From the NCBI GenBank assembly GCA_965221215.1, contig OZ244872.1:1867601-1931600 (forward strand): a stretch of DNA of 64,000 nucleotides, written 5' to 3'. The DNA is from Candidatus Aldehydirespirator sp. (GTDB taxonomy: Bacteria; Actinomycetota; Acidimicrobiia; Acidimicrobiales; Aldehydirespiratoraceae). Positions 4,447 to 62,143 of the stretch are shown one piece after another (positions within the stretch are counted from its first letter, which is position 1; the number at the start of each line of letters is the position of its first letter). A program made the translations under genes and the position numbers. The notes beneath the pieces were generated by a model that was given only the letters and a program-made list of their open reading frames with translations, was not told where the DNA came from and made no database searches.

Positions 4447-5889
4447 GGTGGCGTCTCATCGCCGGTGTAATAGCAGCAGGGGCGTAGGTTCCTTCGAGAA
4501 CCTCAACTCAAGAAGGAGACCTACGCCCGTGCCTGCACGAGTATCGCCCACAGAAGCTGTCCGCGCCGAGATCGACGAGTTGTTCGGCTCGGGCCGCGAC
4601 ATCGCCGAGGTGCTCGAGGAGGTGATGCGCCTGTCGGCGCGGCTCGTGTTGCAGCAGGTCCTCGAGGACGAGGTCACCTCCTGGCTGGGCCGGGGCTGGA
4701 ACTCCCGCGCCGGCGGCGGGCGGGCCGGGCAGCGCAACGGCTACGGCGAGGTGACGGTCAAGACCACCGCGGGGCCCCTGGCGCTGAAGCGCCCGAAGCT
4801 GCGCAACACCACCGAGGCGTTCGCGTCGCAGTTGCTGGGCAAGGGCGTGGTGCGCAGCGAGCCGTTGGAGGCGCTGGTGATCTCGGCGTGGGTGCGGGGC
4901 CTGTCAGACCGCGACATCGAGGCCCTGTTGGCGGAGGCGCTGGGACCGGAGGCCGCCTTGTCGAGGTCCACCGCGTCGCGGATCTGCGCGCGGCTGCGCG
5001 ACGAGTTCGACACGTTCCGCAGCTCAGACCTCTCCGATATCGAGCTGGATTACCTGTTCGTTGACGGCAGCCACTTCAAGATGCACGGCGGGTCGCGCGC
5101 TGAGCCGGTGCTGGTCGCCTACGGCATCACCACCCTCGGGCGGCCGGTGCTGCTGGCCGTGGAGCCCGGCGGCGACGAGTCCTATGACGCCTGGGCCGGG
5201 TTCCTCGACGACCTCGCCGAACGGGGGCTGCGGTCCCCGCTGCTGGTCGTCTCAGACGGCGCGGCAGGCCTGATCGGCGCCGTCGAGCAGAAGATGCCGC
5301 AGTCGCTGCGCCAGCGGTGCCTCATCCACCGCGCCCGCAATGTCTTGGCCAAGGTCCCCGCCGGTCGCCGCGACGAACTCAAGGCCGCGTTCTGGGCGAT
5401 CTTCGACCTCGACGACGACATCGAGCCCGGCCAGGAAGCGGTGAGCGCAGCACAAGCCGGCATCGACGGCTTCGCCCGCCGCTACCAGCGCGAGTTCCCC
5501 GCCGCCGTGCGCTGCCTGCTCGCAGACCGCCAAGCGCTCACCGCGCACCTGCGGCTCCCCGCCGCACACTGGCGCAGGATCCGCCACACCAACCTGATCG
5601 AGCGCACCTTCGGCGAGACCCGCCGACGAGTCAAAGTCATCGGCCGGCTCCCCGGCGAAGCGTCCTGCCTCACACTGGTCTGGGCCGTGCTCGACCGGGC
5701 CTCAAACGGCTGGCGAGGCCTCACCTACACACCCGCCATCGCCCGAGCCCTCACCGAGCTGCGCCACCAACTCCACCAACCCGCCCACACCAACACCGAC
5801 CAGCCCGACCACACCGTCACACGCGCCGCCTAACATGACCACCGGAACCTGCGCCCCAACCGCTATTACACCCAATCTGGGACGCCACC
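4447..5889 (+). mobile_element. IS256-family insertion sequence, copy 1 (1443 bp)
   Basis: Imperfect 28-bp terminal inverted repeats, 22/28 matching: GGTGGCGTCTCATCGCCGGTGTAATAGC (4447..4474) versus the reverse complement of 5862..5889. Flanking direct repeat GGGCCCGAT (4438..4446 and 5890..5898). Differs from copy 2 at only two positions seen (5660, 5731). Confidence 0.9.
4529..5833 (+). CDS. IS256-family (Mutator-type) transposase
   Basis: GTG start 7 nt after AAGGAGA. Typical IS256 transposase sequence: VLEDEVTSWLGR.., YLFVDGSHFKM, LVVSDGAAGL, QRCLIHRARNVL, TNLIERTFGETRRRVKVIGRLPGE. Confidence 0.85.
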   Translation: MPARVSPTEAVRAEIDELFGSGRDIAEVLEEVMRLSARLVLQQVLEDEVTSWLGRGWNSRAGGGRAGQRNGYGEVTVKTTAGPLALKRPKLRNTTEAFASQLLGKGVVRSEPLEALVISAWVRGLSDRDIEALLAEALGPEAALSRSTASRICARLRDEFDTFRSSDLSDIELDYLFVDGSHFKMHGGSRAEPVLVAYGITTLGRPVLLAVEPGGDESYDAWAGFLDDLAERGLRSPLLVVSDGAAGLIGAVEQKMPQSLRQRCLIHRARNVLAKVPAGRRDELKAAFWAIFDLDDDIEPGQEAVSAAQAGIDGFARRYQREFPAAVRCLLADRQALTAHLRLPAAHWRRIRHTNLIERTFGETRRRVKVIGRLPGEASCLTLVWAVLDRASNGWRGLTYTPAIARALTELRHQLHQPAHTNTDQPDHTVTRAA

Positions 5890-24737: not shown

Positions 24738-24885
24738 AACCGAACGTTAGAGGCCAGGCAAGCAGGCAGGCGAATCCGGTTCGTGCCGGCGTGGCCGTGT
24801 CCCGAGCCGACCGGTGAGTCATTTGATCCGACAGGGTGGCGACGGACGCTACCGGCACGGGAGGGCAGTGGTGTATCGTTGGTGT

Positions 24886-25095
24886 ATGGCTAGAACCAAC
24901 ATCGACATCGACGAAGCGGCATGCGCGTCGGTGATGAACAGATACGGGCTGCGCACGAAGCGCGAAGCCGTCAACCTGGCATTGCGAGCTGTCGCTGCTA
25001 AGCCCATGAGCCTTGAGGAGGCCCTGGAGATGCAGGGCACGGGCTGGGAGGGAGACCTCGACGAGATACGCGCCCGCCGGCACGAATGGACCTGA
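24886..25095 (+). CDS. vapB: VapB-type antitoxin (MRTNIDID family)
   Basis: MARTNIDIDEAACASVMNRYGLRTKREAVNLALR. The ORF is trimmed to the ATG at 24886. It overlaps vapC by 10 nt. Confidence 0.8.
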   Translation: MARTNIDIDEAACASVMNRYGLRTKREAVNLALRAVAAKPMSLEEALEMQGTGWEGDLDEIRARRHEWT

Positions 25096-25487
25096 TTCTC
25101 GTCGACACATCAGCCTGGGTGGAGTATCTCCGAGGCACCGACAGCCCGGCTCACGTCGCAACACGAACGGCACTGCTCGGCGATGCCCTCGCCACCTGCG
25201 ATGCGGTTCGAATGGAGCTGCTCGCCGGTGCCCGCAGCGAGCGACACGCCCGCGACTTGAACTCACTGCTGGCGCGCGCTGTCAGCCTCGACACGGCCGC
25301 GACCGACTACGAGTTCGCCGCCTCGATCTACCGGCAGTGCCGCCGAGGCGGCGAAACTCCCCGGTCGTTGATCGACTGCCTGATCGCGGCGGTCGCTATC
25401 CGAACCGGCACACCCGTGCTGCACACCGACCGAGACTTCGACATGATCGCACGGCACAGCCCCCTCGGAACCGTCGCCAACCGCTGA
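25086..25487 (+). CDS. vapC: VapC PIN-domain toxin
   Basis: MDLILVDTSAWVEYL.., ..DCLIAAVAI.., LHTDRDF. Confidence 0.85.
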   Translation: MDLILVDTSAWVEYLRGTDSPAHVATRTALLGDALATCDAVRMELLAGARSERHARDLNSLLARAVSLDTAATDYEFAASIYRQCRRGGETPRSLIDCLIAAVAIRTGTPVLHTDRDFDMIARHSPLGTVANR

Positions 25488-25494
25488 CCTCGGG

Positions 25495-25683
25495 CTACTC
25501 GAGTCTCAGTGCTCGGGTCGGGCAGGCCTCCACCGCCAGTTCAGCGTCCTCGGCCAGTTCGGTGCCGGGCTCGTCGACGAGGACGTGGCAAAGCATGTCG
25601 TCTCGCACCTCGAACACGTCGGGCGCGAGCATCTCGCAGTTCCCGCTGCCGATGCACTTGTCCGCCTCAAGCAAGATCCTCAT
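25495..25683 (-). CDS. Small single-cluster ferredoxin
   Basis: 62 aa: CIGSGNCEMLAPDVF...ACPTRAL. GGAGG lies upstream of the ATG. Confidence 0.8.
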   Translation of the reverse strand: MRILLEADKCIGSGNCEMLAPDVFEVRDDMLCHVLVDEPGTELAEDAELAVEACPTRALRLE

Positions 25684-26099
25684 CCGCCCCCACCTCCGGC
25701 AACCGCAAGAACGTTAGCTCTCTCGTGACCAACCCGACCGTGGGACCGACCAGTGCCGGGCACCTCAGACAGCGGCATTCCGGGCTGCGGTGCGGTAGGC
25801 CGCCAACTCGTCTGAATCAAGTTCTTCCGGTGGAGCGAGGTGGTAGTGGTGCTCACGGGCAATGGTGGCCCACCGTCGAAACTGTGCCGCGACCGCGGCC
25901 TGGCCATGACACCACACGGCCTGCGATCCTCGTTCCGCAGCTGGTGCGCCGAGCAAGGCATCAACCGCGAAGTTGAACCTTCCCGGAAGTAATGCAGGCT
26001 CTTGTTGTGAGTCTCAGCTTGGCGGTCAGCGCGCGGCTCAAGCGCCAACCCGGACTCCCCGAGAACACGAGAGTGAAACGATCCGCGTAGCATCTCATC

Positions 26100-26492
26100 A
26101 TGCGGTCCCCCAAGAGGCGACGGCCTAGGAGGCGTGAGAGGTTCGTGCCGCCGGGAACTGATCTTGCAGCAATAGCTTCTCGCGTCAAGTACGTCGGGAG
26201 TCCCGAGCACAAGGATGCGGTCACGCAGTCGGGTGTGCCACGTCCGCGCGGCGATGCCTCCATCTGCCCCCGCGAGTACAAGGATTTTCAGCTTGCGACG
26301 AGCTGGCTGCGCTCCGCCATCCGTGATGGTTCGACCGGTGGACTGTGGGAGGGCGGCTTTCCGCGCTACGCGTGGCACAAGGAGGCAGCAACCGTGTTCG
26401 AGGCACGGCTCGTGAACCGCGGCGACGGTTCATACAAGGGGTACCCCCTCCACGACGATGAGTGGCCTCCACACATGGTGGACTCGCGATGA
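26100..26492 (+). CDS. Hypothetical basic protein (130 aa); candidate toxin/effector
   Basis: RRRPRRRERF N-terminus; conserved-looking blocks YVGSPEHKD, GGFPRYAWHK, FEARLVNRGDGSYKGYPL. The stop overlaps the start of the next gene (ATGA). Confidence 0.5.
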   Translation: MRSPKRRRPRRRERFVPPGTDLAAIASRVKYVGSPEHKDAVTQSGVPRPRGDASICPREYKDFQLATSWLRSAIRDGSTGGLWEGGFPRYAWHKEAATVFEARLVNRGDGSYKGYPLHDDEWPPHMVDSR

Positions 26493-27790
26493 CTGGTCTC
26501 GAGTTCATTTCGGACTGGCAGGACGGGGAGGGACTGCGGGGAGCCGAGTTGGCCGCAACTTTCGCGTCGCTGAGAATTGACGTACGGGGCCGGCCTCTGA
26601 CGCAGGTCCTCGACCATCGGGCGCGCACTGTGCGGGACCACATCTTCGTTCCGCTCTATCCCATTGCTGAGTGGCTGGCCTCCAACTGGTGGTTCCTCGT
26701 GCACGAGCACGAGAACCGAGTCAAGCGAGAGGATCCGGCCTTCCGCCACCGGCACTCGTTGGGTGCGAGCACCGACGGCTATGCCCTCCCGAACCTGACG
26801 ATCATCGCATCAGGCGGGAGGACCAGCCTCACATGGGGTGACCAAGGGCCCGGATGGGCCGCTGTTCGGTTCCTGGACCGAGGATCGGCGGCAGTCGAGC
26901 GGGACCAGTTCATGCAAGGGTGCACCGAGTTCATCGACAGAGTGATTCGAAGGCTCGTCTCGCACGACATCTCCTCGACGTTCCTGCAAGAGGAATGGGA
27001 TGCAGTTCAGAACGCGGACGAAGACGAGCATGCATTCTGCGAGATGTCAGCCGGGCTGGGCTGGGATCCCTACGATCTGGACGACACCATGAGAGGGCAG
27101 GTGGTAGAACTCGCCGAACGCTTGGGCGAGTTGCGCAGCGAAGCCGTCGCCGTCATCGACTCGGTCACACCCTCACGAGACTGTTCGGCCCTGCTGGCCG
27201 CTATCGAGGCCGCGAAGCCGAACGAGCTCCCGCTGCCGCGTTTCAAGCCTGTCACGCGAGGCGCTGGGTTCCAGCAGCGGCCCCCGTGGGACGTTGGCTA
27301 CGCACTCGCCCGAAGGGCGCGGAGCGAGTTCGGGCTCGACGGCCAGCCGATTGCCAGCACAGAGTCGCTGGCCCACGCGCTGGGACAGGACCTCGGAGCG
27401 CTGAGGCGAGCAACCAGGCCCCTCGAACTCTTGAGTCCTCTGGAACTCGTGGACGGCGTAGTGACGCAGGGGGCTTCGGGCGATGTGGCGCTCGGCTTGA
27501 GGGAACGGGGAGAAGCCAGCATGCGCTTCCTTCTCTGCCGGGCGCTGGGCGAGGCGTTCTACTCTCGCAGAGATGCGCTCCTGACCAAGGGAGCGACCGC
27601 GCGACAAAGGCTCAACCGAGCATTCGCGGCCGAGTTCCTCGCCCCGTCTGCGAGTCTCGCGAAGCGGATCGCGCATCCGACTGTGGACGGGGAGCAGGTA
27701 GACGACCTAGCCGAGGAGTTCGGCGTGTCGACGCGGGTGATCCAACACCAACTCGAAAACCACCGGATTGCAGAATTCGCCCACAACTGA
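26489..27790 (+). CDS. Hypothetical protein (433 aa) with a degenerate ImmA/IrrE-like C-terminal region lacking HExxH
   Basis: The C-terminal RLNRAFAAEFLAPSASL..EEFGVSTRVIQHQLENHRI parallels NAFAAALLMPESKV..FEVSYETLVYRLHNLQII of the genuine ImmA at 51591..52826. The HELGH position reads LCRALGEAF. Confidence 0.55.
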   Translation: MTGLEFISDWQDGEGLRGAELAATFASLRIDVRGRPLTQVLDHRARTVRDHIFVPLYPIAEWLASNWWFLVHEHENRVKREDPAFRHRHSLGASTDGYALPNLTIIASGGRTSLTWGDQGPGWAAVRFLDRGSAAVERDQFMQGCTEFIDRVIRRLVSHDISSTFLQEEWDAVQNADEDEHAFCEMSAGLGWDPYDLDDTMRGQVVELAERLGELRSEAVAVIDSVTPSRDCSALLAAIEAAKPNELPLPRFKPVTRGAGFQQRPPWDVGYALARRARSEFGLDGQPIASTESLAHALGQDLGALRRATRPLELLSPLELVDGVVTQGASGDVALGLRERGEASMRFLLCRALGEAFYSRRDALLTKGATARQRLNRAFAAEFLAPSASLAKRIAHPTVDGEQVDDLAEEFGVSTRVIQHQLENHRIAEFAHN

Positions 27791-27894
27791 AGAGCCCCCT
27801 CCTTTGGCGCGCAATGATGCCATCTGGGGGTGACACTCGCTGAGGCCGGAAGGTTGAGCCTCCAAACTTGTTTAGCACCCTCGTTGTGCTCGCG

Positions 27895-29169
27895 CTAGGG
27901 GTTGGGGTGGACTTCTGCGAAACGGTTTATTCTTCGCAGTTCTGGGAACAGCATCCACCAGGCGGCTACTACCGCCAGGGTGCCGACCCCGCCGAAGATG
28001 ACGGCGCCGGCCACTCCGAGCAGCGCCCCGGCGACGCCGGACTCGAAGGCGCCGAGTTCGTTGGAGGCCCCGACGAAGGTGTACTCGACGGCCATGACCC
28101 GGCCCCGCATGTTCTCGGGGGTTGCCAGGGGCACCAGCGTGCTGCGCACGAACACGCTCACCGAGTCGGCGCCGCTCAGCGCCAGCAGCGCGATGAACGC
28201 CACCGCATACGAGCGGGTGAGGCCAAGCACGATGGTTCCCAGACCGAACACCGCCACCGCGGCCATCAGCGCCAGGCCCACCCGCTGCGCCAGGGGCCGC
28301 ACCGCCAGCACCGCCATCGTGGACAGGGCCCCGATCCCCACCGCGGCCCGCAGCCAACCCAGCCCCACCGCCCCCACGCCGAGGCGCTCCTCGGCGATGG
28401 CGGGCAGCAGCGCCACCGCTCCCCCGAACAGCACCGCGAACAGGTCGAGGGAGATGATGCCCAACACCACCCGGTTGCGCCGGATGAAGCGGAGCCCCTG
28501 AAGGGCATGGACGAGCACCGCCCGCACCCCGCCGGTGACCGCCGTGGAGCGGGCCACGCCACTGGCCGGCACCACCGCCAGCAGCGAGGCGGCAGCCAGT
28601 GCAGCGGCGGCTGCCAGCAGGTAAGGCGCGGCCACGTCGGCCACGAAGACGAAGCTGAACACGACCGGCCCCACCACGAAGCCGGCCTGCCAGCCCGACA
28701 TGCACATCGCCACCATCCGCTCGACCGCGCCGGGCGGCGCCAGGTCCACCGGCATGACCCGGCTGGCCGCGCTCAGCACCGAGCGGGCACAGCCGAAGAC
28801 CACAACCAGGGCGAAGATCGGCACCACCGACGCAGGATCCGACGCCACGTAGAAGTACAGCCCCGCCGACGCGGCCGCTTCGCCCACCAGCCCGCAGGCG
28901 TACATCACCCGCCGGTCGAATCGGTCCGACAGCACTCCGCTGAGCGGCGCCAGCAGCAGGGTGGGCACGAACTCCGCCAGCCCGAGCAGGCCGAGGTCGA
29001 GCGGCTCGCCGGTCATGTCGTACACCTGCTTGCCCAGGATCGTGATCTGGCCCACGGTCATGGCTGCGGTCAAGAAGATGACGACCGGCAGGGCCCAGAG
29101 CCGCGGGCCGATCCGACCTGACGACCCGGCGCCGCCCGCCGGTGAGTCGTCGTCCCGCATCGGCCCCAA
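27895..29169 (-). CDS. MFS transporter
   Basis: 424 aa, multi-pass hydrophobic, with LSGVLSDRFDRRVM (MFS loop motif). Confidence 0.8.
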   Translation of the reverse strand: MGPMRDDDSPAGGAGSSGRIGPRLWALPVVIFLTAAMTVGQITILGKQVYDMTGEPLDLGLLGLAEFVPTLLLAPLSGVLSDRFDRRVMYACGLVGEAAASAGLYFYVASDPASVVPIFALVVVFGCARSVLSAASRVMPVDLAPPGAVERMVAMCMSGWQAGFVVGPVVFSFVFVADVAAPYLLAAAAALAAASLLAVVPASGVARSTAVTGGVRAVLVHALQGLRFIRRNRVVLGIISLDLFAVLFGGAVALLPAIAEERLGVGAVGLGWLRAAVGIGALSTMAVLAVRPLAQRVGLALMAAVAVFGLGTIVLGLTRSYAVAFIALLALSGADSVSVFVRSTLVPLATPENMRGRVMAVEYTFVGASNELGAFESGVAGALLGVAGAVIFGGVGTLAVVAAWWMLFPELRRINRFAEVHPNP

Positions 29170-29175
29170 CGCTAC

Positions 29176-29318
29176 GAGGCCGAGAGGGCGCGCAGATAGG
29201 TGAGAGCCGATCGCGTCGCGGCGGGGTCATTCCCGCTCTTGTTCGCTGCGCTCACGGGCCACTCGGGCCACGGCCTCGCCCGTATGAGCCGGATTCGGTC
29301 ACCTATTCGCTCGGCCTC
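29176..29318 (-). repeat. MITE/REP-like intergenic element, copy A (short variant)
   Basis: Ends GAGGCCGAGAGGGCGCGCAGATAGGTGAGAGCC / TCACCTATTCGCTCGGCCTC. Shares the core GGGGTCATTCCCGCTCTTGTTCGCTGCGCTCACGGGCC with copies B-E. Confidence 0.8.
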
Positions 29319-29347
29319 TGAGCGCCCGCCTCTAGCCTGCGGGCGCA

Positions 29348-31456
29348 ATGGCCCTGCCCGCTCTTGGCAGCTTCCTGCCCGACACGCCCGGCGCCGACGA
29401 GCTGCTCGACGCCTTCATCGACTGGTCGCTGGCGGCCGGCCTCGAGCTGTACCCGCACCAGGAGGAGGCGGTGCTGCGCCTGCTGGCCGGCGAGAACGTG
29501 GTGCTGTCCACCCCCACCGGCTCGGGCAAGTCGCTGGTGGCGCTGGCCGGAGCGTTCGCCATGCTGGCCCAGCGGCGCCGCACCGTCTACACCGCACCCA
29601 TCAAGGCGCTGGTGAGCGAGAAGTTCTTCGGGCTAACCGCGGCCCTCGGCCCGGCCAATGTGGGCATGGTCACCGGCGACGCCTCCGTCAACGGCGACGC
29701 TCCGGTGGTGGCCTGCACCGCGGAGATCCTGGCCCAGCGGGCCCTGCGCTCGGGTCCCGACACCGCCGCCGACCTGGTGGTGATGGACGAGTTCCACTAC
29801 TACGGCGACCGCGACCGCGGCTGGGCCTGGCAGGTGCCGCTGCTGGAGATGCCCAACGCCCGGTTCCTGCTGATGTCGGCCACCCTGGGCGACACCGCCG
29901 GGCTGCGCCGCGACCTCACCGCCCGAACCGGGCGAGACACCGCGCTGGTGGCATCGGCCGAGCGGCCCGTCCCCCTCGACGTCGAATACCGCGAGACCCC
30001 GCTGCACGTCTCCATCGAGGAGCTGCTCTCCACCGGCCGCGCCCCCACCTACATCGTGCACTTCACCCAGCGCGAGGCCGCCGCCCGGGCCCAGAGCCTC
30101 ACCAGCCTGCGGGTGCTCGACACCGACGAGAAGGCCGCCGTCAAAGAGGCGGTGGGCGGGTTCCGCTTCGACACGCCCATCGGCAAGGATCTGCGCCGCT
30201 TCGTGCTGGCCGGCATCGGCCTCCACCACGCCGGCATGCTGCCCAAGTACCGGCTGCTGGTGGAGAAGCTGGCCCAGCAGGGCCACCTGAAGCTGATCTG
30301 CGGCACCGACACCCTCGGGGTGGGCGTGAACGTCCCCATCCGCACCGTGCTGTTCACCCAGCTCTACAAGTACGACGGCCGGCGCACCCGGGTGCTGTCG
30401 GTGCGGGACTTCCAGCAGATCGCGGGCCGGGCCGGAAGGCGGGGCTTCGACACCGTCGGCAGCGTGTGGGTGCAGGCCCCCGAGCATGCGGTGGAGAACA
30501 AGCGGGCCGAGATGCGGGCCGCGGGCGACCCCAAGAAGCTGCGCAAGCTGGTCCGCAAGAAGCCGCCCGATAGGGGCTACGCCCACTACGACGAAAAGAC
30601 CCTGGCCCGGCTGTGGGAGGGCGCCCCCGAGACGCTCGAGTCCAGCTTCGACGTGACCCACGCCATGATGCTCAACGTGCTGGACCGGCCCGGCGACGGC
30701 TGCGCGGCCATGAAGCGCCTGCTGGTCGACAACCACGAGCCCCGCCCCCGCCAGCGCCGCCACATCCGCAAGGCGGTGGGGGTGTTCCGGTCGCTGATCG
30801 ACGCCGAGATCGTGGAGGTGCTGCCCGAGCCCGACGCCTCGGGCCGCCCGGTGCGGGTGAACATCGACCTCCAGGACGAGTTCAGGCTCAACCAGCCGCT
30901 GGGGCTGTTCGCGGTGGAGGCCGTCTCGGTGTTGGACCGCGAGGCCTCCGACTACGCCCTGCAGGCGCTCAGCGTGGTGGAGTCGGTCCTGGAGGACCCG
31001 ATGGCGGTGCTGCTGGCCCAGCGGGACGCAGCCCGAGACGCGCTGATGACCCGCATGAAGGAGCAGGGCGTGGAGTACGAGGAGCGCATGGCTCGGCTGG
31101 CCGAGGTGACCTGGCCCAAGCCCGAGGCCGAGTTCATCGAGCCCGCCTTCGCCACCTTCGCCCGCCACCATCCGTGGGTGGGACATCTGCGGCCCAGCCC
31201 CAAGTCGGTCGTGCGCGACATGGTGGAGCACGCCGACACCTTCAACCAGTACGTGAGCCGCTACGGGCTGAAGCGCTCCGAGGGCCTGGTGCTGCGCTAC
31301 CTGACCGACTGCTACAAGGCGCTGGTGCAGACCGTGCCCGCGGTCGCCGTGGACGACCGTCTGGCCGAGGTGACCGACTGGCTGGGCACGCTGGTCCGCG
31401 ATGTGGACTCGAGCCTGCTCGACGAATGGGAGCGGCTGCGCACCGTGAGCGCATAG
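29348..31456 (+). CDS. Ski2-like DEAD/DEAH-box helicase (HelY-like / DUF3516-type)
   Basis: 702 aa: TPTGSGKS, VMDEFHYY, MSATL, GIGLHHAGMLPKYR, GVNVPIRTV, QIAGRAGRRG. Confidence 0.85.
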   Translation: MALPALGSFLPDTPGADELLDAFIDWSLAAGLELYPHQEEAVLRLLAGENVVLSTPTGSGKSLVALAGAFAMLAQRRRTVYTAPIKALVSEKFFGLTAALGPANVGMVTGDASVNGDAPVVACTAEILAQRALRSGPDTAADLVVMDEFHYYGDRDRGWAWQVPLLEMPNARFLLMSATLGDTAGLRRDLTARTGRDTALVASAERPVPLDVEYRETPLHVSIEELLSTGRAPTYIVHFTQREAAARAQSLTSLRVLDTDEKAAVKEAVGGFRFDTPIGKDLRRFVLAGIGLHHAGMLPKYRLLVEKLAQQGHLKLICGTDTLGVGVNVPIRTVLFTQLYKYDGRRTRVLSVRDFQQIAGRAGRRGFDTVGSVWVQAPEHAVENKRAEMRAAGDPKKLRKLVRKKPPDRGYAHYDEKTLARLWEGAPETLESSFDVTHAMMLNVLDRPGDGCAAMKRLLVDNHEPRPRQRRHIRKAVGVFRSLIDAEIVEVLPEPDASGRPVRVNIDLQDEFRLNQPLGLFAVEAVSVLDREASDYALQALSVVESVLEDPMAVLLAQRDAARDALMTRMKEQGVEYEERMARLAEVTWPKPEAEFIEPAFATFARHHPWVGHLRPSPKSVVRDMVEHADTFNQYVSRYGLKRSEGLVLRYLTDCYKALVQTVPAVAVDDRLAEVTDWLGTLVRDVDSSLLDEWERLRTVSA

Positions 31457-34977: not shown

Positions 34978-35135
34978 GAGGCCGAGCGAATAGGCGAGCG
35001 AGTCCGGCCCATACAGGCGAGGCCGTGGGCTGTGACGCTGGGGTTTGGGCGGCCCGTGAGCGCAGCGAACAAGAGCGGGAATGACCCTGCTTCGACGCGA
35101 CTGGCTCTCACCCCACAGCGCTCCCTCTTGGCGTC
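34978..35135 (+). repeat. MITE/REP-like intergenic element, copy B (long variant)
   Basis: GAGGCCGAGCGAATAGGCGAGCGAGTCCGGCCCATACAGGCGAGGCCGTGGGCTGTGACGCTGGGGTTTGGGCGGCCCGTGAGCGCAGCGAACAAGAGCGGGAATGACCC... Confidence 0.8.
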
Positions 35136-35343
35136 GGGAGGATTGTCGGGCACGGAACTCTCCAGTGGACTCACCGACATCGGCCATGACGCTACCGCTG
35201 CCGAGGTAACGGGCAGCGTCAGAGGCCGAGCGACGGGAAGCGGCTCAATCCCGATAAATCTGATCGGGATTGTGTTGTATTGGGGTTGGCCGTGCGCTAC
35301 CCTCGCAAATCCTGACTTGTCTTATCGGAATTATCGGAATCAG

Positions 35344-48022: not shown

Positions 48023-48118
48023 TGCGTCTACCTCCCACGCGTGCCGCGGGCCTCGAACCCACGGCCCGGCCGAGCGTAACCAGCCCCTCCCAGCCCCACA
48101 AGGGCGCGTTCAGGCCCA

Positions 48119-48216
48119 GAGGCCGAGCGAGTTAGTGAGCGAGTCCGGCCCATACGGGCGAGGCCGTGGCCCGAGCGGCCCGTGAGCGCTGCGAACAAGA
48201 GCGGGAATTCGCGCGG
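48119..48216 (+). repeat. MITE/REP-like element, copy C (short variant, 3'-truncated)
   Basis: GAGGCCGAGCGAGTTAGTGAGCGAGTCCGGCCCATACGGGCGAGGCCGTGGCCCGAGCGGCCCGTGAGCGCTGCGAACAAGAGCGGGAAT. Lies between nfeD-like and the flotillin gene. Confidence 0.75.
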
Positions 48217-49905: not shown

Positions 49906-50861
49906 GCCCCGCTCCTCGGGCCATGACTAACGACCGGGCCGCTGGACCGGAGGTTGCAGTGGTGGGCAGCGCCAACCTCGACCTGGTGGTGGAGGTGGAG
50001 GCGGTGCCGGTGGCGGGCGAGACGGTCCGCGGCGGTGACCTGCGGCGCATCCCCGGCGGCAAGGGCGCCAACCAGGCCGTGGCCGCGTCTCGCCTCGGAC
50101 GGCGGGTCGCCATGATCGGACGGGTCGGCGACGATGACGCGGGCGCGATGCTGCGCGCCGCCATGGACTCCAGCGGCGTCGACACTGCCGGGCTGCTGAC
50201 CACCGGGGGCACCGCCAGCGGCACCGCCCTGATCGCGGTGGGCGCCGACGGCGACAACGCCATCGTGGTGAGTCCGGGCGCCAACCGCCGCCTCAGCTCC
50301 GACGATGTGCAGAGCGCGGCGGAAGTGCTCGGCGCCGCTGCGGTGGTGCTGCTGCAACTCGAGGTGCCGCTGGAGGCGGTGGCGGCCGCGGTGCGCTGCG
50401 CCCAGGGCACGGTGGTGCTCAACCCCGCACCGGCGCCGGCGGCGCCGCTTCCCGCCGATCTGCTCGACGGGGTGGACGTGATCGTCCCCAACCAGACCGA
50501 GCTGGCCACCATGGCGAGACACGCCGGACTCTCCCCTATCGGCGGCGTCGACCCCGAGACCGCGGTGGCGCTGGCCCGGGGTCTGCCGGTGGCGGCTGCG
50601 GTGGTGACCCTGGGCGCGGCCGGTGCCATGGTGGTCACCCCCACCGATGCCACCCATGTGCCCGCGCCGACGGTAGTGCCCGTCGACAGCACCGCAGCGG
50701 GCGACGCCTTCTGCGCGGCGCTGGCCGACGCGCTCGTGTCCGGCGCCGATCTGGTGCGCGCCGCGGAGTGGGCCGTCAAGGTGGGAGCGGCCACCACGCT
50801 GCGCCACGGCGCCCAGCCCTCCCTGCCAACCCCCGCCGACATAGAGCACTTGCTGAGCTAA
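49902..50861 (+). CDS. rbsK: Ribokinase (PfkB family)
   Basis: VVGSANLDLVV, PGGKGANQAVAASRLG, DSTAAGDAF. ATGA overlap with the upstream gene. Confidence 0.8.
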   Translation: MSPAPRAMTNDRAAGPEVAVVGSANLDLVVEVEAVPVAGETVRGGDLRRIPGGKGANQAVAASRLGRRVAMIGRVGDDDAGAMLRAAMDSSGVDTAGLLTTGGTASGTALIAVGADGDNAIVVSPGANRRLSSDDVQSAAEVLGAAAVVLLQLEVPLEAVAAAVRCAQGTVVLNPAPAPAAPLPADLLDGVDVIVPNQTELATMARHAGLSPIGGVDPETAVALARGLPVAAAVVTLGAAGAMVVTPTDATHVPAPTVVPVDSTAAGDAFCAALADALVSGADLVRAAEWAVKVGAATTLRHGAQPSLPTPADIEHLLS

Positions 50862-50990
50862 GAGGGCGCTCAAATAGGCGAGAGCCAGTCGTGTCGCAGC
50901 GGGGTCATTCCCGCTCCTGTTCTCTGCACTCATGGGCCACCCAAACCCCAGCGTCATCGAGCTGACAGCCGGATAAGCCCGGTTCATTTC
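50862..50990 (-). repeat. MITE/REP-like element, copy D (long variant, one end diverged)
   Basis: AGAGGGCGCTCAAATAGGCGAGAGCCAGTCGTGTCGCAGCGGGGTCATTCCCGCTCCTGTTCTCTGCACTCATGGGCCACCCAAACCCCAGCGTCA... Confidence 0.7.
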
Positions 50991-51590: not shown

Positions 51591-52826
51591 TCAGGCTGCT
51601 ACGGGATCCTCGTCAAATGCCTGGATCGCGATGTCTGGAGGATCCTGAGGGGTCGAGTAGTCGCTATCGATGGCGCTTGCCGCCTCCGGTCCGATGGAGT
51701 TGAGCGCCTCGATCATGTTGTCCACGTCAACGTCGAGTAGCTGCGCCAGGGGCCCAGCCCCGACGGTTCCATCCAACGCGCCTCGCAGACACCGCGCGGC
51801 GAGCAGTGCGGGCGGGCGCCTCTCGGGCCTGGCTCCCCGCGCTGCAAGCAGGCTGCGAGCCATCCCGTCGTCCTCAAGGTGCTCGACCAATCCGGTCCAG
51901 CCGATGCTCCGCAAGCGATCTCGTCCGTGGGCGTTGATGATCTGGAGGTTGTGCAGGCGATAGACGAGCGTCTCGTAGCTGACTTCGAATCTTATAAGCA
52001 TCCGTGCCAGAGACTCCGCCCCGCGACCGTGCTCCTTGATGATTCCGAGAACTTTGGACTCTGGCATCAACAGTGCAGCGGCGAACGCATTGGCCAGCCG
52101 TTCCTCATTGGATCGGGCCCGCAGATCCCGGTCAATGTTGATCATTGCCCCATCGCCGCTGAGTACGTGCCCCAACTCGTGAGCCAGCGTGAACAGAGCC
52201 CGAGATCTGAGCTGGTCGGCGTTCACCAGTATGAACGAGAACTCGACATCGGTGATCGACAAGCCGAGCGGTGAATCCTTGCCTAGGCGCTCGACCATTA
52301 CATCCACGCCCAAGCTGTCCTCAATGGCCGAGGCCAACTCAGTCAGACGATCCTCTCCCTCGGTAGCCGGATCGAGACGATGCAAGGCCCAGTCGGCTAG
52401 AGCGTTGGCGTGTTCCAGCCATCTGGGATCGCGGCTTGGAAGCCCGCCAATTTGGGCAGCGGCAGGATGCCCGCCGTCGCTCAGCACTTGGTGCAGTTCC
52501 GCCAGAGCTGTGATTCGCATCCGAGTGCTCCGGCTACCGCCGTCATCGCCGTTGGTGCGGTGAGCGACCGGAAGCCGCCCCAAGAGCGAGTGGGGCTCGA
52601 GGATGGCCAGTTGTGACACACCCAGGAAGTTCGCGATGGCAGCGAGTTCGGAGGCCTTCACGTTTCGCCGGCCGTGTTCGAGGTTGGACACGGCGCTGGC
52701 GTCTACCCCCAGCGCGTCCGCGAGATCCGCGGCCTTGAGTCCCGCAGCCTCTCTCAGCCGCCGGATCTGGCGACCGATGGACACCTCCACAGCGACAGTA
52801 TGGGCCGCATCTTGTGGAAATCGCAA
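51591..52826 (-). CDS. XRE-family HTH fused to an ImmA/IrrE (COG2856) zinc metallopeptidase
   Basis: HTH IGRQIRRLREAAGLKAADLADALGVDASAVSNLEHGRR; peptidase FTLAHELGHVL; NAFAAALLMPE. Confidence 0.85.
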   Translation of the reverse strand: MRFPQDAAHTVAVEVSIGRQIRRLREAAGLKAADLADALGVDASAVSNLEHGRRNVKASELAAIANFLGVSQLAILEPHSLLGRLPVAHRTNGDDGGSRSTRMRITALAELHQVLSDGGHPAAAQIGGLPSRDPRWLEHANALADWALHRLDPATEGEDRLTELASAIEDSLGVDVMVERLGKDSPLGLSITDVEFSFILVNADQLRSRALFTLAHELGHVLSGDGAMINIDRDLRARSNEERLANAFAAALLMPESKVLGIIKEHGRGAESLARMLIRFEVSYETLVYRLHNLQIINAHGRDRLRSIGWTGLVEHLEDDGMARSLLAARGARPERRPPALLAARCLRGALDGTVGAGPLAQLLDVDVDNMIEALNSIGPEAASAIDSDYSTPQDPPDIAIQAFDEDPVAA

Positions 52827-61979: not shown

Positions 61980-61991
61980 ACCGCGAGCCTA

Positions 61992-62143
61992 GAGGCCGAG
62001 CGAATAGGTGAGCGATTCCGGTCCATACGGGCGAGGCCGTGGGCTGTGATGCCCGGGGTTTGGGCGGCCCGTGGGCGCAGCGAACAAGAGCGGGAAAGAC
62101 CCCGCCGCGACGCGACCGGCTCTGGCCCATTTGCGCGCCCTCC
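61992..62143 (+). repeat. MITE/REP-like element, copy E (long variant)
   Basis: GAGGCCGAGCGAATAGGTGAGCGATTCCGGTCCATACGGGCGAGGCCGTGGGCTGTGATGCCCGGGGTTTGGGCGGCCCGTGGGCGCAGCGAACAAGAGCGGGAAAGACCCC..GCGCGCCCTCC. Confidence 0.8.

What the first reader, a model, noticed from the sequence alone, without database searches (positions are those of the whole stretch)
26100..27790. Translationally coupled pair: a 130-aa basic protein plus a 433-aa pseudo-ImmA protein (candidate novel toxin/immunity or sensor module)
**What is seen**
- The two genes overlap by ATGA.
- They sit in a small accessory patch next to vapBC.
- The small protein has an arginine-rich N-terminus and blocks that look family-defining: YVGSPEHKD, GGFPRYAWHK, FEARLVN..GSYKGYPL.
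- The GGFPRY..F..R..N stretch faintly recalls microbial RNase (RNase Sa/T1-type) core motifs. This is a weak impression only.
- The large protein has a distinctive N-terminal domain (..LYPIAEWLASNWWFLVHEHE..).
- Its C-terminal region parallels the ImmA/IrrE peptidase found elsewhere in this window, but the zinc-binding HExxH is replaced by LCRALGEAF, so it is probably a non-catalytic derivative.

**Why it matters**
- I do not recognise this pairing as a described system.
Basis: partly seen in the sequence, partly recalled or inferred. Interest (0 to 1): 0.6.

Follow-up and report, generated by a model that had tools for sequence, protein, structure and literature searches.

The report
Toxin–antitoxin pair with dead ImmA protease
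A mobile two-gene cassette encodes a small basic protein that is probably a toxin and a large partner that is probably its antitoxin; the partner's ImmA/IrrE-type protease domain has lost its catalytic residues in every relative examined, making this a new variant of the known Rosmer-type defence/toxin–antitoxin systems.

Summary
Two co-directional genes, 26100-26492 (130 aa, pI 10.1) and 26489-27790 (433 aa, pI 5.4), overlap by ATGA.

- **Linkage:** every relative of the small gene with enough downstream sequence to judge has the large gene next to it (81/81 loci). No third gene is conserved.
- **Mobility:** DNA homology to related genomes stops at 26020-27794, and GC is 64.6% against about 70.7% in the flanks, so it behaves as a mobile cassette.
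- **Large protein:** a confident model shows an N-terminal double beta4-alpha domain (tentatively Whirly/PUR-like), a helical middle and a C-terminal ImmA/IrrE/CapP-like fold. HExxH is replaced by R-A-x-x-E, and 0 of 159 homologues have HExxH.
- **Small protein:** a new family with only weak RelE/ParE-like hints. The RNase Sa/T1 idea is not supported.
- **Polarity:**
  - The small gene is decayed in 18/76 loci where the large gene is intact; the reverse occurs in 1/58.
  - A relative of the large protein sits directly downstream of a validated TumE toxin.

Most likely this is a toxin-first type II toxin–antitoxin or defence module. It is closest to RosmerTA but fails that family's zinc-peptidase criterion. 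I rate it a new variant of a known kind. Toxicity and mechanism are untested.

The parts
26020..26099 (+). Conserved upstream region of the cassette. It contains a -10-like TAGCAT (26088-26093) 6 nt before the ATG and has no Shine-Dalgarno, so the mRNA is probably leaderless.
   Evidence: DNA similarity to related loci starts at 26020-26081. TAGCATCTCATCATG is conserved in 7 loci whose coding regions are only 72-92% identical. The consensus sigma-70 scan found nothing. The promoter and leaderless reading is inference.
26100..26492 (+). Small gene: 130 aa, pI 10.06, with an Arg-rich N-terminal tail (9 K/R in the first 16 residues). It is the putative toxin and belongs to a new family.
   Evidence: The AF2 model has pLDDT 74.7: helix 22-28, low-confidence conserved loop 35-59, helix 63-76, strands 90-95, 98-106 and 111-117, helix 124-127. 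There are no Pfam, NCBIfam, PADLOC or PDB hits.
26477..26492 (+). Coupling junction: SD-like GGTGGA (26477-26482) inside the small gene, then the ATGA stop/start overlap (26489-26492).
   Evidence: In relatives the gap between the two genes ranges from -37 to +72 nt by tblastn hit ends, and the gene calls for the most distant pair (L080) show a 4-bp overlap.
26489..27790 (+). Large gene: 433 aa, pI 5.39. It is the putative antitoxin or sensor.
   Evidence: The AF2 model has pLDDT 89.4 and pTM 0.84.
26489..26968 (+). N-terminal domain (aa 1-160): two beta-beta-beta-beta-alpha repeats, tentatively a Whirly/PUR-like fold. It carries the invariant YP.AEW..NWWF motif.
   Evidence: Foldseek matches are MRP1/2 (prob 0.66), PURA (0.57), PBF-2 and CdiI 5ffp (0.87), all with E>0.02. 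Foldseek gives no query ranges, so assigning these matches to aa 1-160 is my inference from topology. No Pfam hit.
26969..27445 (+). Helical middle region (aa 161-319), the most variable part of the protein.
27446..27787 (+). C-terminal ImmA/IrrE (Peptidase_M78)-like domain, catalytically dead.
   Evidence: Pfam PF06114 matches aa 354-422 at E=1.6e-4. PADLOC RmrA and CapP match aa 374-419. Foldseek gives CapP 7t5t and IrrE 3dti. hhalign to the window's active M78 protein is.
27524..27553 (+). Degenerate active-site helix R346-F-L-L-C350-R351-A-L-G-E355. R351, A352 and E355 occupy the positions of His, Glu and His of HExxH.
   Evidence: R351 is universal across 159 homologues, and none of them has HExxH.
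27614..27646 (+). Invariant N376-RAFAAEFLAP-386, equivalent to the (E)xxANxFAxxLLxP motif of M78 peptidases. Q373 falls where I would expect the third zinc ligand Glu.
   Evidence: The ligand assignment rests on my knowledge of IrrE, and the alignment is gapped at that point.

Best explanation
This is a self-contained, horizontally mobile, toxin-first type II toxin–antitoxin-like module of the Rosmer kind.

**Proposed roles**
- The 130-aa basic protein is the toxin. Its target is probably nucleic acid or translation, but this is the weakest step: it rests on an Arg-rich N-terminal arm and faint RelE/ParE (BECR-fold) resemblance.
- The 433-aa acidic protein is its cognate antitoxin.

**Proposed mechanism**
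- The antitoxin neutralises by stable binding, not by proteolysis. Its ImmA/IrrE-fold domain has lost the zinc ligands and the catalytic Glu in every relative examined.
- I infer that the dead peptidase groove holds a segment of the toxin as a pseudo-substrate. The candidate is the highly conserved loop 33-59 (GSPEHK...DASxCP), which is modelled with low confidence.
- I infer that the N-terminal Whirly/PUR-like domain either contributes to toxin binding or senses a trigger such as single-stranded nucleic acid that releases the toxin.
- The biological role would be addiction or abortive-infection defence.

**Shown versus inferred**
- Shown:
  - gene structure
  - obligatory linkage
  - co-divergence of the two proteins
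  - cassette mobility
  - the dead active site
  - the asymmetry of decay
  - partner swap with a validated toxin
- Inferred:
  - toxicity
  - neutralisation by binding
  - the binding interface
  - the sensor function
  - the target
For: **Linkage and co-evolution**
- In loci picked by the small gene, 81/81 with enough downstream sequence have the large gene directly downstream on the same strand. Three more could not be judged.
- In loci picked by the large gene, 70/79 have the small gene directly upstream, and most of the others keep remnants of it.
- No third gene is conserved across 163 loci.
- Pairwise identities of the two proteins co-vary (r=0.87 over 114 pairs). The small protein is the more conserved in 99.5% of comparisons (59% against 41% mean identity), as is usual for toxin against antitoxin.
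- The small protein is basic (pI 10.1) and the large one acidic (pI 5.4).

**Polarity**
- With an intact large gene, the small gene is destroyed in 18/76 genome loci:
  - deletions
  - 5' truncations
  - nonsense codons in L015 and L061
  - frameshifts in L045 and L064
- An intact small gene with a truncated large gene occurs in 1/58 loci (L134), and that small gene carries W69C and Y90N. My automatic, over-strict classification gave Fisher p = 3e-5; I did not recompute it for the hand-corrected count of 18/76.
- On Rhizobium etli plasmid pRetIE4771b, a homologue of the large protein sits 6 nt downstream of a TumE toxin.
  - The homology is hhalign probability 99.4% over 361 columns, with the same dead motif and an added N-terminal wHTH.
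  - The upstream gene hits Pfam PF20126 at 29.2 bits, above the cut-off of 23.4.
  - TumE is experimentally toxic and is neutralised by diverse antitoxins (PMC10584680).

**Homology to known antitoxins**
- Close relatives hit PADLOC RmrA at up to E=3.6e-8 over the whole M78 region.
- Foldseek gives CapP at probability 1.0 and IrrE at 0.77.
- ImmA-domain proteins are an established antitoxin hub, with the toxin gene first in 58% of cases (PMC10440598).

**Dead enzyme**.

**Mobility and defence context**
- Homology with relatives is confined to 26020-27794.
- Cassette GC is 64.6% against 70.7% in the flanks.
- The cassette sits next to vapBC and what looks like an integrase remnant (the remnant has no Pfam hit).
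- Distant pairs lie in defence-type neighbourhoods:
  - between two restriction endonucleases and an integrase on A. tumefaciens pAt2
  - after DptH and before a patatin-like gene on a Massilia plasmid
  - near an ApeA-HEPN gene in soil contigs

**Toxin fold hints**
- The Foldseek top list is dominated by ParE, RelE, HigB and CdiA-CT toxins.
- One family member hits DUF4258, which is listed among RelE/ParE-superfamily families in PMC11980606.
Against: - No experiment shows toxicity or neutralisation.
- The fold assignment of the small protein is not significant:
  - The best Foldseek E-value is 0.25 with TM about 0.3.
  - The DUF4258 hit is 19.7 bits, below the cut-off of 25, in 1 of 66 members.
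  - BFVD was uninformative.
- One locus (L134) has a full-length small gene beside a truncated large gene.
- The large gene stays intact long after the small gene is lost, which means it may have a function of its own.
- The N-terminal Whirly/PUR assignment rests on weak Foldseek matches (prob 0.57-0.87, rmsd 8-12 Å).
- No complex model could be made, so the interface is conjecture.
- The pattern scan found nothing in IMG/VR, so there is no direct phage link.
Confidence: 0.62

Rival explanations
1. The pair is a regulatory switch of the ImmR/ImmA, DdrO/IrrE or CapH/CapP type. The small protein would be a nucleic-acid-binding regulator. The large pseudo-protease would be an anti-regulator that sequesters it instead of cleaving it, and the pair would control other genes.
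For: - The large protein has an M78 fold closest to CapP and IrrE.
- The small partner is about 130 aa, similar in size to those repressors (from my own knowledge), and has a very basic N-terminus.
- The genes are adjacent and translationally coupled.
- The large gene survives without the small one.
Against: - The small protein has no HTH, either in Pfam or in the model.
- No target gene is conserved next to the pair in 163 loci, and the pair moves as a bare 1.8-kb cassette.
- Frequent inactivation of the small gene alone fits a costly toxin better than a regulator.
- A relative of the large protein pairs with the validated TumE toxin.
Confidence: 0.12
2. The polarity is reversed. The large COG2856-like protein would be the toxin or effector and the small protein its antitoxin, as was once predicted for Xre-COG2856 pairs.
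For: COG2856 proteins were predicted to be toxins in PMC2701414 (found; I did not open the paper, so the content of the prediction is from my own knowledge). The large protein is the more complex component.
Against: - The large gene remains intact in 18 loci where the small gene is destroyed, which would be lethal or strongly selected against if the large protein were an unneutralised toxin.
- The catalytic residues are absent.
- ImmA-domain proteins were shown to be antitoxins in Rosmer systems (PMC10440598).
- The charge pattern (basic small, acidic large) points the other way.
Confidence: 0.04
3. The pair is an interbacterial polymorphic-toxin and immunity pair. The small protein would be an exported effector and the large protein its immunity protein, with orphan immunity genes accumulating.
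For: - Foldseek matches the large protein to a CdiI immunity protein (5ffp, prob 0.87) and the small protein weakly to a contact-dependent inhibition (CDI) system entry (7m5f chain C).
- L068 carries an extra orphan paralogue of the large gene.
- Loci with the large gene but only remnants of the small gene resemble orphan immunity genes.
Against: - The small protein is a free-standing protein of about 130 aa.
  - Its Arg-rich N-terminus is not followed by a hydrophobic stretch, so I see no signal peptide.
  - All 150 listed relatives are at most 546 aa, so it is not a toxin tip on a large delivery protein.
- No secretion or delivery gene is conserved nearby.
Confidence: 0.05

Closest known systems
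RosmerTA (RmrT toxin + RmrA antitoxin with an ImmA/Zn-peptidase domain); node D25 'ImmA/Rosmer' of the NetFlax toxin–antitoxin network
   Same: - Two-gene module with a small toxin of no known family and a larger partner carrying an ImmA/IrrE-fold domain.
- The toxin-first order is common in this group (58%) (PMC10440598).
- Relatives of the large protein hit PADLOC RmrA at up to E=3.6e-8.
- Distant members lie in defence-island or mobile-element contexts.
   Different: - HExxH is replaced by RAxxE in every member, whereas RmrA is described as a Zn-peptidase.
- There is no N-terminal HTH. Instead there is a 160-aa double beta4-alpha domain and a helical region.
- The window protein's own RmrA match is partial (aa 374-419, 17.7 bits).
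- The small protein matches no PADLOC model, including any RmrT model the library holds.
ImmA/ImmR, IrrE/DdrO and CapP/CapH protease–repressor pairs (Peptidase_M78, COG2856)
   Same: The protease-domain fold is shared: Foldseek CapP 7t5t and IrrE 3dti, Pfam PF06114 at the cut-off. The gene is adjacent to a small partner gene.
   Different: The catalytic site is dead. The partner is not an XRE-type HTH repressor. There is no regulon next to the pair. The window carries a separate canonical HTH+M78 protein at 51591-52826 for comparison.
TumE–TumA toxin–antitoxin superfamily (PMC10584680)
   Same: A homologue of the large protein (with an added wHTH) occupies the partner slot next to a TumE toxin on a Rhizobium etli plasmid. 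This shows that the large family behaves as an exchangeable antitoxin.
   Different: The small protein here is unrelated to TumE (hhalign probability 0.1%). In most TumE pairs the toxin gene lies downstream of its partner (PMC10584680); here the toxin is first.
RelE/ParE (BECR-fold) toxins, including DUF4258
   Same: The predicted core is helix, helix, three-stranded antiparallel sheet and a short C-terminal helix. The Foldseek top list is ParE, RelE and HigB. One member hits DUF4258. Conserved basic and aromatic residues lie on or next to the sheet strands (R89, R103, Y112, K113, Y115).
   Different: Nothing is statistically significant. The most conserved motifs (Y.GS.[EY]HK, DASxC) lie in an N-terminal loop that I do not recognise from RelE/ParE. 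The Arg-rich N-terminal arm is also extra.

Membership tests
RosmerTA (RmrT/RmrA) | Two adjacent co-directional genes: a toxin plus an antitoxin carrying an ImmA-type domain | tested here: met
   ATGA overlap. M78-like C-terminal domain. Linkage in 81/81 loci.
RosmerTA (RmrT/RmrA) | Match to RmrA profile models | tested here: inconclusive
   The window protein hits PDLC03955 at E=4e-4 (17.7 bits) over aa 374-419 only. Relatives score better: P0176 at E=3.6e-8 over aa 275-446, P0130 at 2e-5, P0223 at 1.4e-5. Distant members give no hit.
RosmerTA (RmrT/RmrA) | Antitoxin is a Zn-peptidase (HExxH) | tested here: not met
   R351, A352 and E355 align to His, Glu and His. 0 of 159 homologues have HExxH.
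RosmerTA (RmrT/RmrA) | Toxicity of the T component, neutralisation by the A component, and phage defence | not testable with these tools
   Only indirect evidence exists: decay asymmetry and defence-island context of distant members.
Peptidase_M78 (ImmA/IrrE, COG2856) | M78 fold and Pfam PF06114 match | tested here: inconclusive
   21.9 bits against a cut-off of 22, covering profile positions 51-122 of 123. The Tistrella relative scores 29 bits. Foldseek gives CapP at probability 1.0 (E=0.012) and IrrE at 0.77.
Peptidase_M78 (ImmA/IrrE, COG2856) | HExxH zinc site plus a downstream Glu ligand | tested here: not met
   Invariant Q373 sits about where the third ligand is expected, but the alignment is gapped there.
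Peptidase_M78 (ImmA/IrrE, COG2856) | Partner is an XRE-type HTH repressor that is the protease substrate | tested here: not met
   The small protein has no HTH in Pfam or in the model.
RelE/ParE superfamily (BECR fold), including DUF4258 | Profile match to a member family | tested here: not met
   The window protein hits 0 Pfam families. 1 of 66 relatives hits DUF4258 at 19.7 bits, below the cut-off of 25. There is no PDB sequence hit.
RelE/ParE superfamily (BECR fold), including DUF4258 | Fold: N-terminal helices packed on a 3-4-stranded antiparallel sheet | tested here: inconclusive
   The topology is compatible. The top Foldseek hits are ParE, RelE and HigB, but the best E-value is 0.25 and TM is at most 0.36.
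Microbial RNase (barnase / RNase Sa / T1, PF00545) | Profile match and collinear Glu-Arg-His catalytic motifs | tested here: not met
   1 of 66 members hits at E=0.12. The 'YKGYPL' resemblance to Y[HY]E[YW]P lacks the Glu, and the order of conserved residues differs. This comparison rests on my own knowledge of those sequences.
TumE toxin (PF20126) | Small protein homologous to TumE | tested here: not met
   hhalign of A4 against the R. etli TumE gives probability 0.1%.
Whirly/PUR-like nucleic-acid-binding fold (N-terminal domain of the large protein) | Repeated beta-beta-beta-beta-alpha units, and structural match to Whirly/PUR/MRP proteins | tested here: inconclusive
   The model has two such units with pLDDT mostly 75-96 (block 91-100 averages 68). 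Foldseek gives MRP1/2 at 0.66, PURA at 0.57 and CdiI at 0.87, with rmsd 8-12 Å. Nucleic-acid binding cannot be tested here.

The most novel reading that the evidence does not exclude
The pair would be a previously undescribed abortive-infection system in which a catalytically dead ImmA protease has been converted into a pseudo-substrate clamp.
- The dead peptidase groove would hold the conserved flexible loop of a new toxin family.
- The Whirly/PUR-like N-terminal domain would detect single-stranded phage nucleic acid and release the toxin.
- The cassette would be traded across at least ten bacterial phyla. The close copies come largely from uncultured lineages whose names suggest marine-sponge symbionts.
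Probability: 0.15. Interest if true: 0.75.

Novelty: new variant of a known kind. Interest (0 to 1): 0.55.

Why it matters
- **Mechanism of ImmA-domain antitoxins.** These proteins are a hub of toxin–antitoxin and phage-defence systems, but how they neutralise toxins and sense infection is not settled.
  - A large natural family in which the peptidase is dead throughout, yet the pairing is strictly kept, argues that neutralisation in this branch needs binding and not proteolysis.
  - That gives a clean system to separate the two roles.
- **New components.** The finding adds a new and widespread putative toxin family (739 clusters at 50% identity) and a new N-terminal domain to the catalogue.
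- **Horizontal transfer.** It documents transfer of one 1.8-kb cassette among very distant phyla.
- **Testability.** Copies on plasmids of cultured Agrobacterium, Rhizobium, Sphingomonas and Tistrella make it directly testable.

Tried and rejected
**Searches that gave nothing useful**
- Pfam, NCBIfam, PADLOC and PHROGs on the small protein found nothing.
- PDB sequence searches with profiles A1, A2 and A4 found nothing usable.
- Foldseek of the small-protein model against BFVD was uninformative.
- The IMG/VR pattern scan for the large protein returned no stretch. It only tests two exact peptide patterns.
- Rfam on 25600-29400 gave no hit.
- The consensus promoter/terminator scan found no sites.

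**Ideas considered and dropped**
- P0161 and P0163 (552-553 aa) looked like small+large fusions. Their N-terminal extension is unrelated sequence from an upstream alternative start, as in L009.
- A conserved third gene: clustering of all ORFs in 163 loci found only the two genes and their shadow ORFs.
- An HExxH elsewhere in the large protein: none in the C-terminal 160 residues of 159 homologues.
- RNase Sa/T1 membership: rejected.
- A Tat or signal-peptide reading of the Arg-rich N-terminus: rejected because no hydrophobic stretch follows (sequence).

**Not attempted or not possible**
- Inter-protein covariation (DCA), because 114 pairs is too few.
- A model of the complex, because the structure tool takes single chains only.
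Full report
**1. What is there**

The window carries two co-directional ORFs.
- The small ORF is 26100-26492 (ATG, 130 aa).
- The large ORF starts at ATG 26489 and ends at 27790 (433 aa). An upstream GTG at 26462 would add 9 residues.

The stop codon of the first gene and the start of the second share ATGA (26489-26492). An SD-like GGTGGA sits 7 nt upstream at 26477-26482. Homologues of both proteins start at the positions of these ATGs.

The small protein is very basic: pI 10.06, with 9 K/R in the first 16 residues. The large one is acidic, pI 5.39.

Neighbours are as follows.
- VapB and VapC-PIN lie at 24814-25487.
- A ferredoxin lies at 25495-25683 on the minus strand.
- An ORF at about 25840-25992 looks like an integrase C-terminal remnant; it has no Pfam hit.
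- An MFS transporter lies at 27895-29169 on the minus strand.
- A DEAD/DUF3516 helicase lies at 29348-31456.

**2. It is a discrete, mobile two-gene cassette**

- DNA similarity between the window and the closest related loci (L030 89%, L021 92%, L001 86%, L003/L002 74%, L004 72%) begins at 26020-26081 and ends at 27780-27794. That is the two genes plus about 80 nt upstream.
- Cassette GC is 64.6%, against 70.7% and 70.9% in the flanks.
- Upstream, TAGCAT-CTCATC-ATG is conserved in seven loci and there is no Shine-Dalgarno. I read this as a -10 box for a leaderless mRNA, which is inference. The consensus scan found no sigma-70 site.
- Clustering all ORFs of at least 80 aa from 163 related loci found only the two genes and their shadow ORFs as recurrent. 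There is no third component.

**3. Linkage**

- A genome scan with the large protein gave 249 matches, of which 79 loci were kept. In 70 of them the small gene lies immediately upstream on the same strand.
- A metagenome scan with the small protein gave 80 loci, and a look-up of a distant small homologue gave 4 more. All 81 with enough downstream sequence to judge carry the large gene directly downstream; 3 could not be judged.
- Across 114 intact pairs the pairwise identities of the two proteins correlate (Pearson 0.87). The small protein is the more conserved in 99.5% of comparisons, with mean identity 59% against 41%.

**4. The large protein**

The AlphaFold2 model is confident, with pLDDT 89.4 and pTM 0.84. 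It shows three regions.

- **aa 1-160: two beta-beta-beta-beta-alpha units.**
  - This part carries the invariant P-L-Y-P-x-A-E-W-x-x-x-N-W-W-F block.
  - Foldseek matches with this kind of topology are the Whirly/PUR-fold proteins MRP1/2 (prob 0.66), PURA (0.57) and PBF-2, and a CdiI immunity protein (5ffp, 0.87).
  - All have poor rmsd, and Foldseek reports no query ranges. The fold label and its assignment to aa 1-160 are therefore tentative.
- **aa 161-319: a variable helical region.**
- **aa 320-433: an ImmA/IrrE-like domain.**
  - Foldseek: CapP 7t5t at probability 1.0, IrrE 3dti/3dte at 0.77/0.69.
  - Pfam: Peptidase_M78 at 21.9 bits against a cut-off of 22.
  - PADLOC: RmrA and CapP match aa 374-419. 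Closer relatives hit RmrA at up to E=3.6e-8 over the whole domain.

A profile alignment to the window's own active HTH+M78 protein (51591-52826, Pfam E=1.5e-20) puts R351 on the first His, A352 on the catalytic Glu and E355 on the second His.

Conservation of this site differs with distance.
- R346, F347, C350, R351 and E355 are invariant in the close family.
- In distant members only the Arg at the first-His position stays universal.
- None of 159 homologues has HExxH.

**5. The small protein**

- It has no hit in Pfam, NCBIfam, PADLOC, PHROGs or PDB sequences.
- The family is large: 739 clusters at 50% identity with E<=1e-3.
- Across the broad family the near-invariant positions are Y31, G33, S34, H37, K38, C56, L70, P88, W92, G110 and Y112.
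- The model (pLDDT 74.7) gives these elements:
  - helix 22-28
  - a low-confidence but highly conserved loop 35-59
  - helix 63-76
  - three antiparallel strands (90-95, 98-106, 111-117)
  - a short C-terminal helix
- Foldseek finds nothing significant (best E=0.25). However, the top of the list is ParE1, ParE2, ParE, RelE2, RelE, HigB and an entry for a contact-dependent inhibition (CDI) system.
- One of 66 members (P0373, aa 60-93) hits DUF4258 at 19.7 bits. That family is counted in the RelE/ParE superfamily in PMC11980606.

I take this as a hint of a BECR-type fold and nothing more. The RNase Sa/T1 idea finds no support (one member at E=0.12).

**6. Which is the toxin?**

Three independent lines point to the small protein.

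- **Decay asymmetry.**
  - Among 76 genome loci with an intact large gene, the small gene is destroyed in 18. The lesions are:
    - complete or internal deletions (L009, L022, L031, L037, L040, L048, L057, L065, L070, L074)
    - 5' truncations that keep only the 3' end overlapping the large gene's start (L046, L049, L053, L058)
    - nonsense codons (L015, L061)
    - frameshifts (L045, L064)
  - Among 58 loci with an intact small gene and full room, the large gene is truncated once (L134). That small gene has substitutions at conserved W69 and Y90.
  - My automatic, over-strict classification gave Fisher p = 3e-5. I did not recompute it for the hand-corrected count of 18/76.
  - Some decay events are probably shared by descent, so the number of independent events is lower than 18.
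- **Partner swap.**
  - On Rhizobium etli pRetIE4771b a 529-aa protein has an N-terminal wHTH and a region homologous to residues 43-427 of the large protein. hhalign gives 99.4% over 361 columns, with the same dead motif LARAVGD and RAFAAE.
  - It lies 6 nt downstream of a TumE toxin gene, which scores 29.2 bits against a cut-off of 23.4.
  - TumE is experimentally toxic and is neutralised by diverse antitoxins (PMC10584680).
- **General signatures.** The small protein is basic and the large one acidic, and the small protein is the more conserved.

**7. Comparison with known systems**

'Toxin of unknown family plus antitoxin with a Zn-peptidase (ImmA) domain' is the RosmerTA configuration (bioRxiv 10.1101/2022.05.11.491447). 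In the NetFlax network it is the D25 ImmA antitoxin hub, which is toxin-first in 58% of cases and enriched in phage-defence systems (PMC10440598).

The present pair works like that class, and its C-terminal domain is homologous to RmrA. It fails the defining zinc-peptidase criterion, lacks the usual HTH, and has a different N-terminal domain and a toxin family absent from PADLOC. I therefore call it a new variant of a known kind and not a member.

**8. Distribution and context**

- The 79 closest genome loci come from metagenome-assembled genomes of the following groups:
  - Acidimicrobiia (including Ca. Aldehydirespirator, Ca. Poriferisodalis and Ca. Spongiisocius)
  - Dehalococcoidia
  - Ca. 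Binatia
  - Latescibacterota
  - Acidobacteriota
  - Gemmatimonadaceae
  - Spirochaetia
  - Rhodothermales
  - Thermodesulfobacteriota
  - Gammaproteobacteria
- Identity of the large protein is 45-90% across these phyla, which implies horizontal transfer. The genus names suggest sponge-associated communities, but I did not verify the sample origins.
- The window itself is closest to Ca. Aldehydirespirator in Acidimicrobiales (88% protein identity for the large protein).
- More distant pairs occur in a range of other metagenome contigs and on plasmids of cultured bacteria:
  - A. tumefaciens cl001 pAt2, between two restriction endonucleases and an integrase
  - a Massilia plasmid, between DptH and a patatin-like gene, where the small gene is truncated
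  - Tistrella pTM2
  - Sphingomonas p01 and Rhizobium sp. Pop5, where the small proteins are 176-180 aa (hhalign 98%)
- A soil-contig pair lies near an ApeA-HEPN gene.
- The pattern scan found none in IMG/VR.

**9. Mechanism and confidence**

- Most likely (0.62): the small protein is a toxin held inactive by stoichiometric binding to the large protein.
  - The dead peptidase groove and/or the N-terminal domain would form the binding site.
  - The module would act as an addiction or abortive-infection element.
- The target of the toxin (RNA or translation) is a weak inference.
- Rivals: a regulator/anti-regulator pair (0.12), an interbacterial toxin/immunity pair (0.05) and reversed polarity (0.04).
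- None of this has been tested experimentally. The decisive experiments are listed separately.

Noticed in passing
window 29170-29347 (+), 61991-62142 (-), 34978-35136 (-), 48114-48208 (-), 50861-50940 (+); also L030 4656-4744, L018 15475-15637, L003 16039-16124: This is an intergenic repeat family of about 150 nt with five copies in the window (77-90% identical) and copies in related Acidimicrobiales genomes. Its ends are imperfect inverted repeats (AGAGGGCGCGCAGATAGGTGAGAG ... CGCTCACCTATTCGCTCGGCCTCT). It looks like a MITE or a structured RNA element. Rfam gave no hit for the one copy that was scanned.
   Followed up: partly
window ~25840-25992 (+): A short ORF ends in ...RSSFRSWCAEQGINREV, which looks like the C-terminal remnant of a tyrosine integrase, immediately upstream of the cassette. 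It has no Pfam hit. A 63-nt stretch (25897-25959) matches L030 4146-4208.
   Followed up: partly
L068 6005-7396 (-), next to 4739-5791 (+): A second, divergent paralogue of the large gene (463 aa, 28% identity, same dead motif) has no small partner. It lies head-to-head with a complete pair and next to an integrase-like ORF. This is an 'orphan antitoxin' arrangement.
   Followed up: partly
window 51591-52826 (-): This is a canonical XRE-HTH + Peptidase_M78 protein with an intact HELGH (Pfam E=1.5e-20). It was used here as the active comparator; its own partner and function were not examined.
   Followed up: partly
L040 7555-7812, L053 7638-7784, L057 7824-7970: In three Acidobacteriota loci where the small gene is degraded, a conserved 48-aa double-CxxC zinc-ribbon ORF (MTCPRCRTKMKVAAHRPHKQEKWRCPKCGKVRMK...) lies just upstream of the large gene.
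   Followed up: no
L007 and L008 (both from OZ220743.1, about 20 kb apart): Two complete copies of the pair occur in one Acidimicrobiales genome. Both show about 60% identity to the window's large protein.
   Followed up: no
L165 3696-3938 (Massilia sp. H6 plasmid): The annotated small partner is only 80 aa. It keeps the C-terminal core (GFPKNIW...EAQLEN...YHGYPMP) but lacks the N-terminal Y.GS.EHK/DASxC half. It is either a truncated pseudogene or a minimal variant.
   Followed up: no
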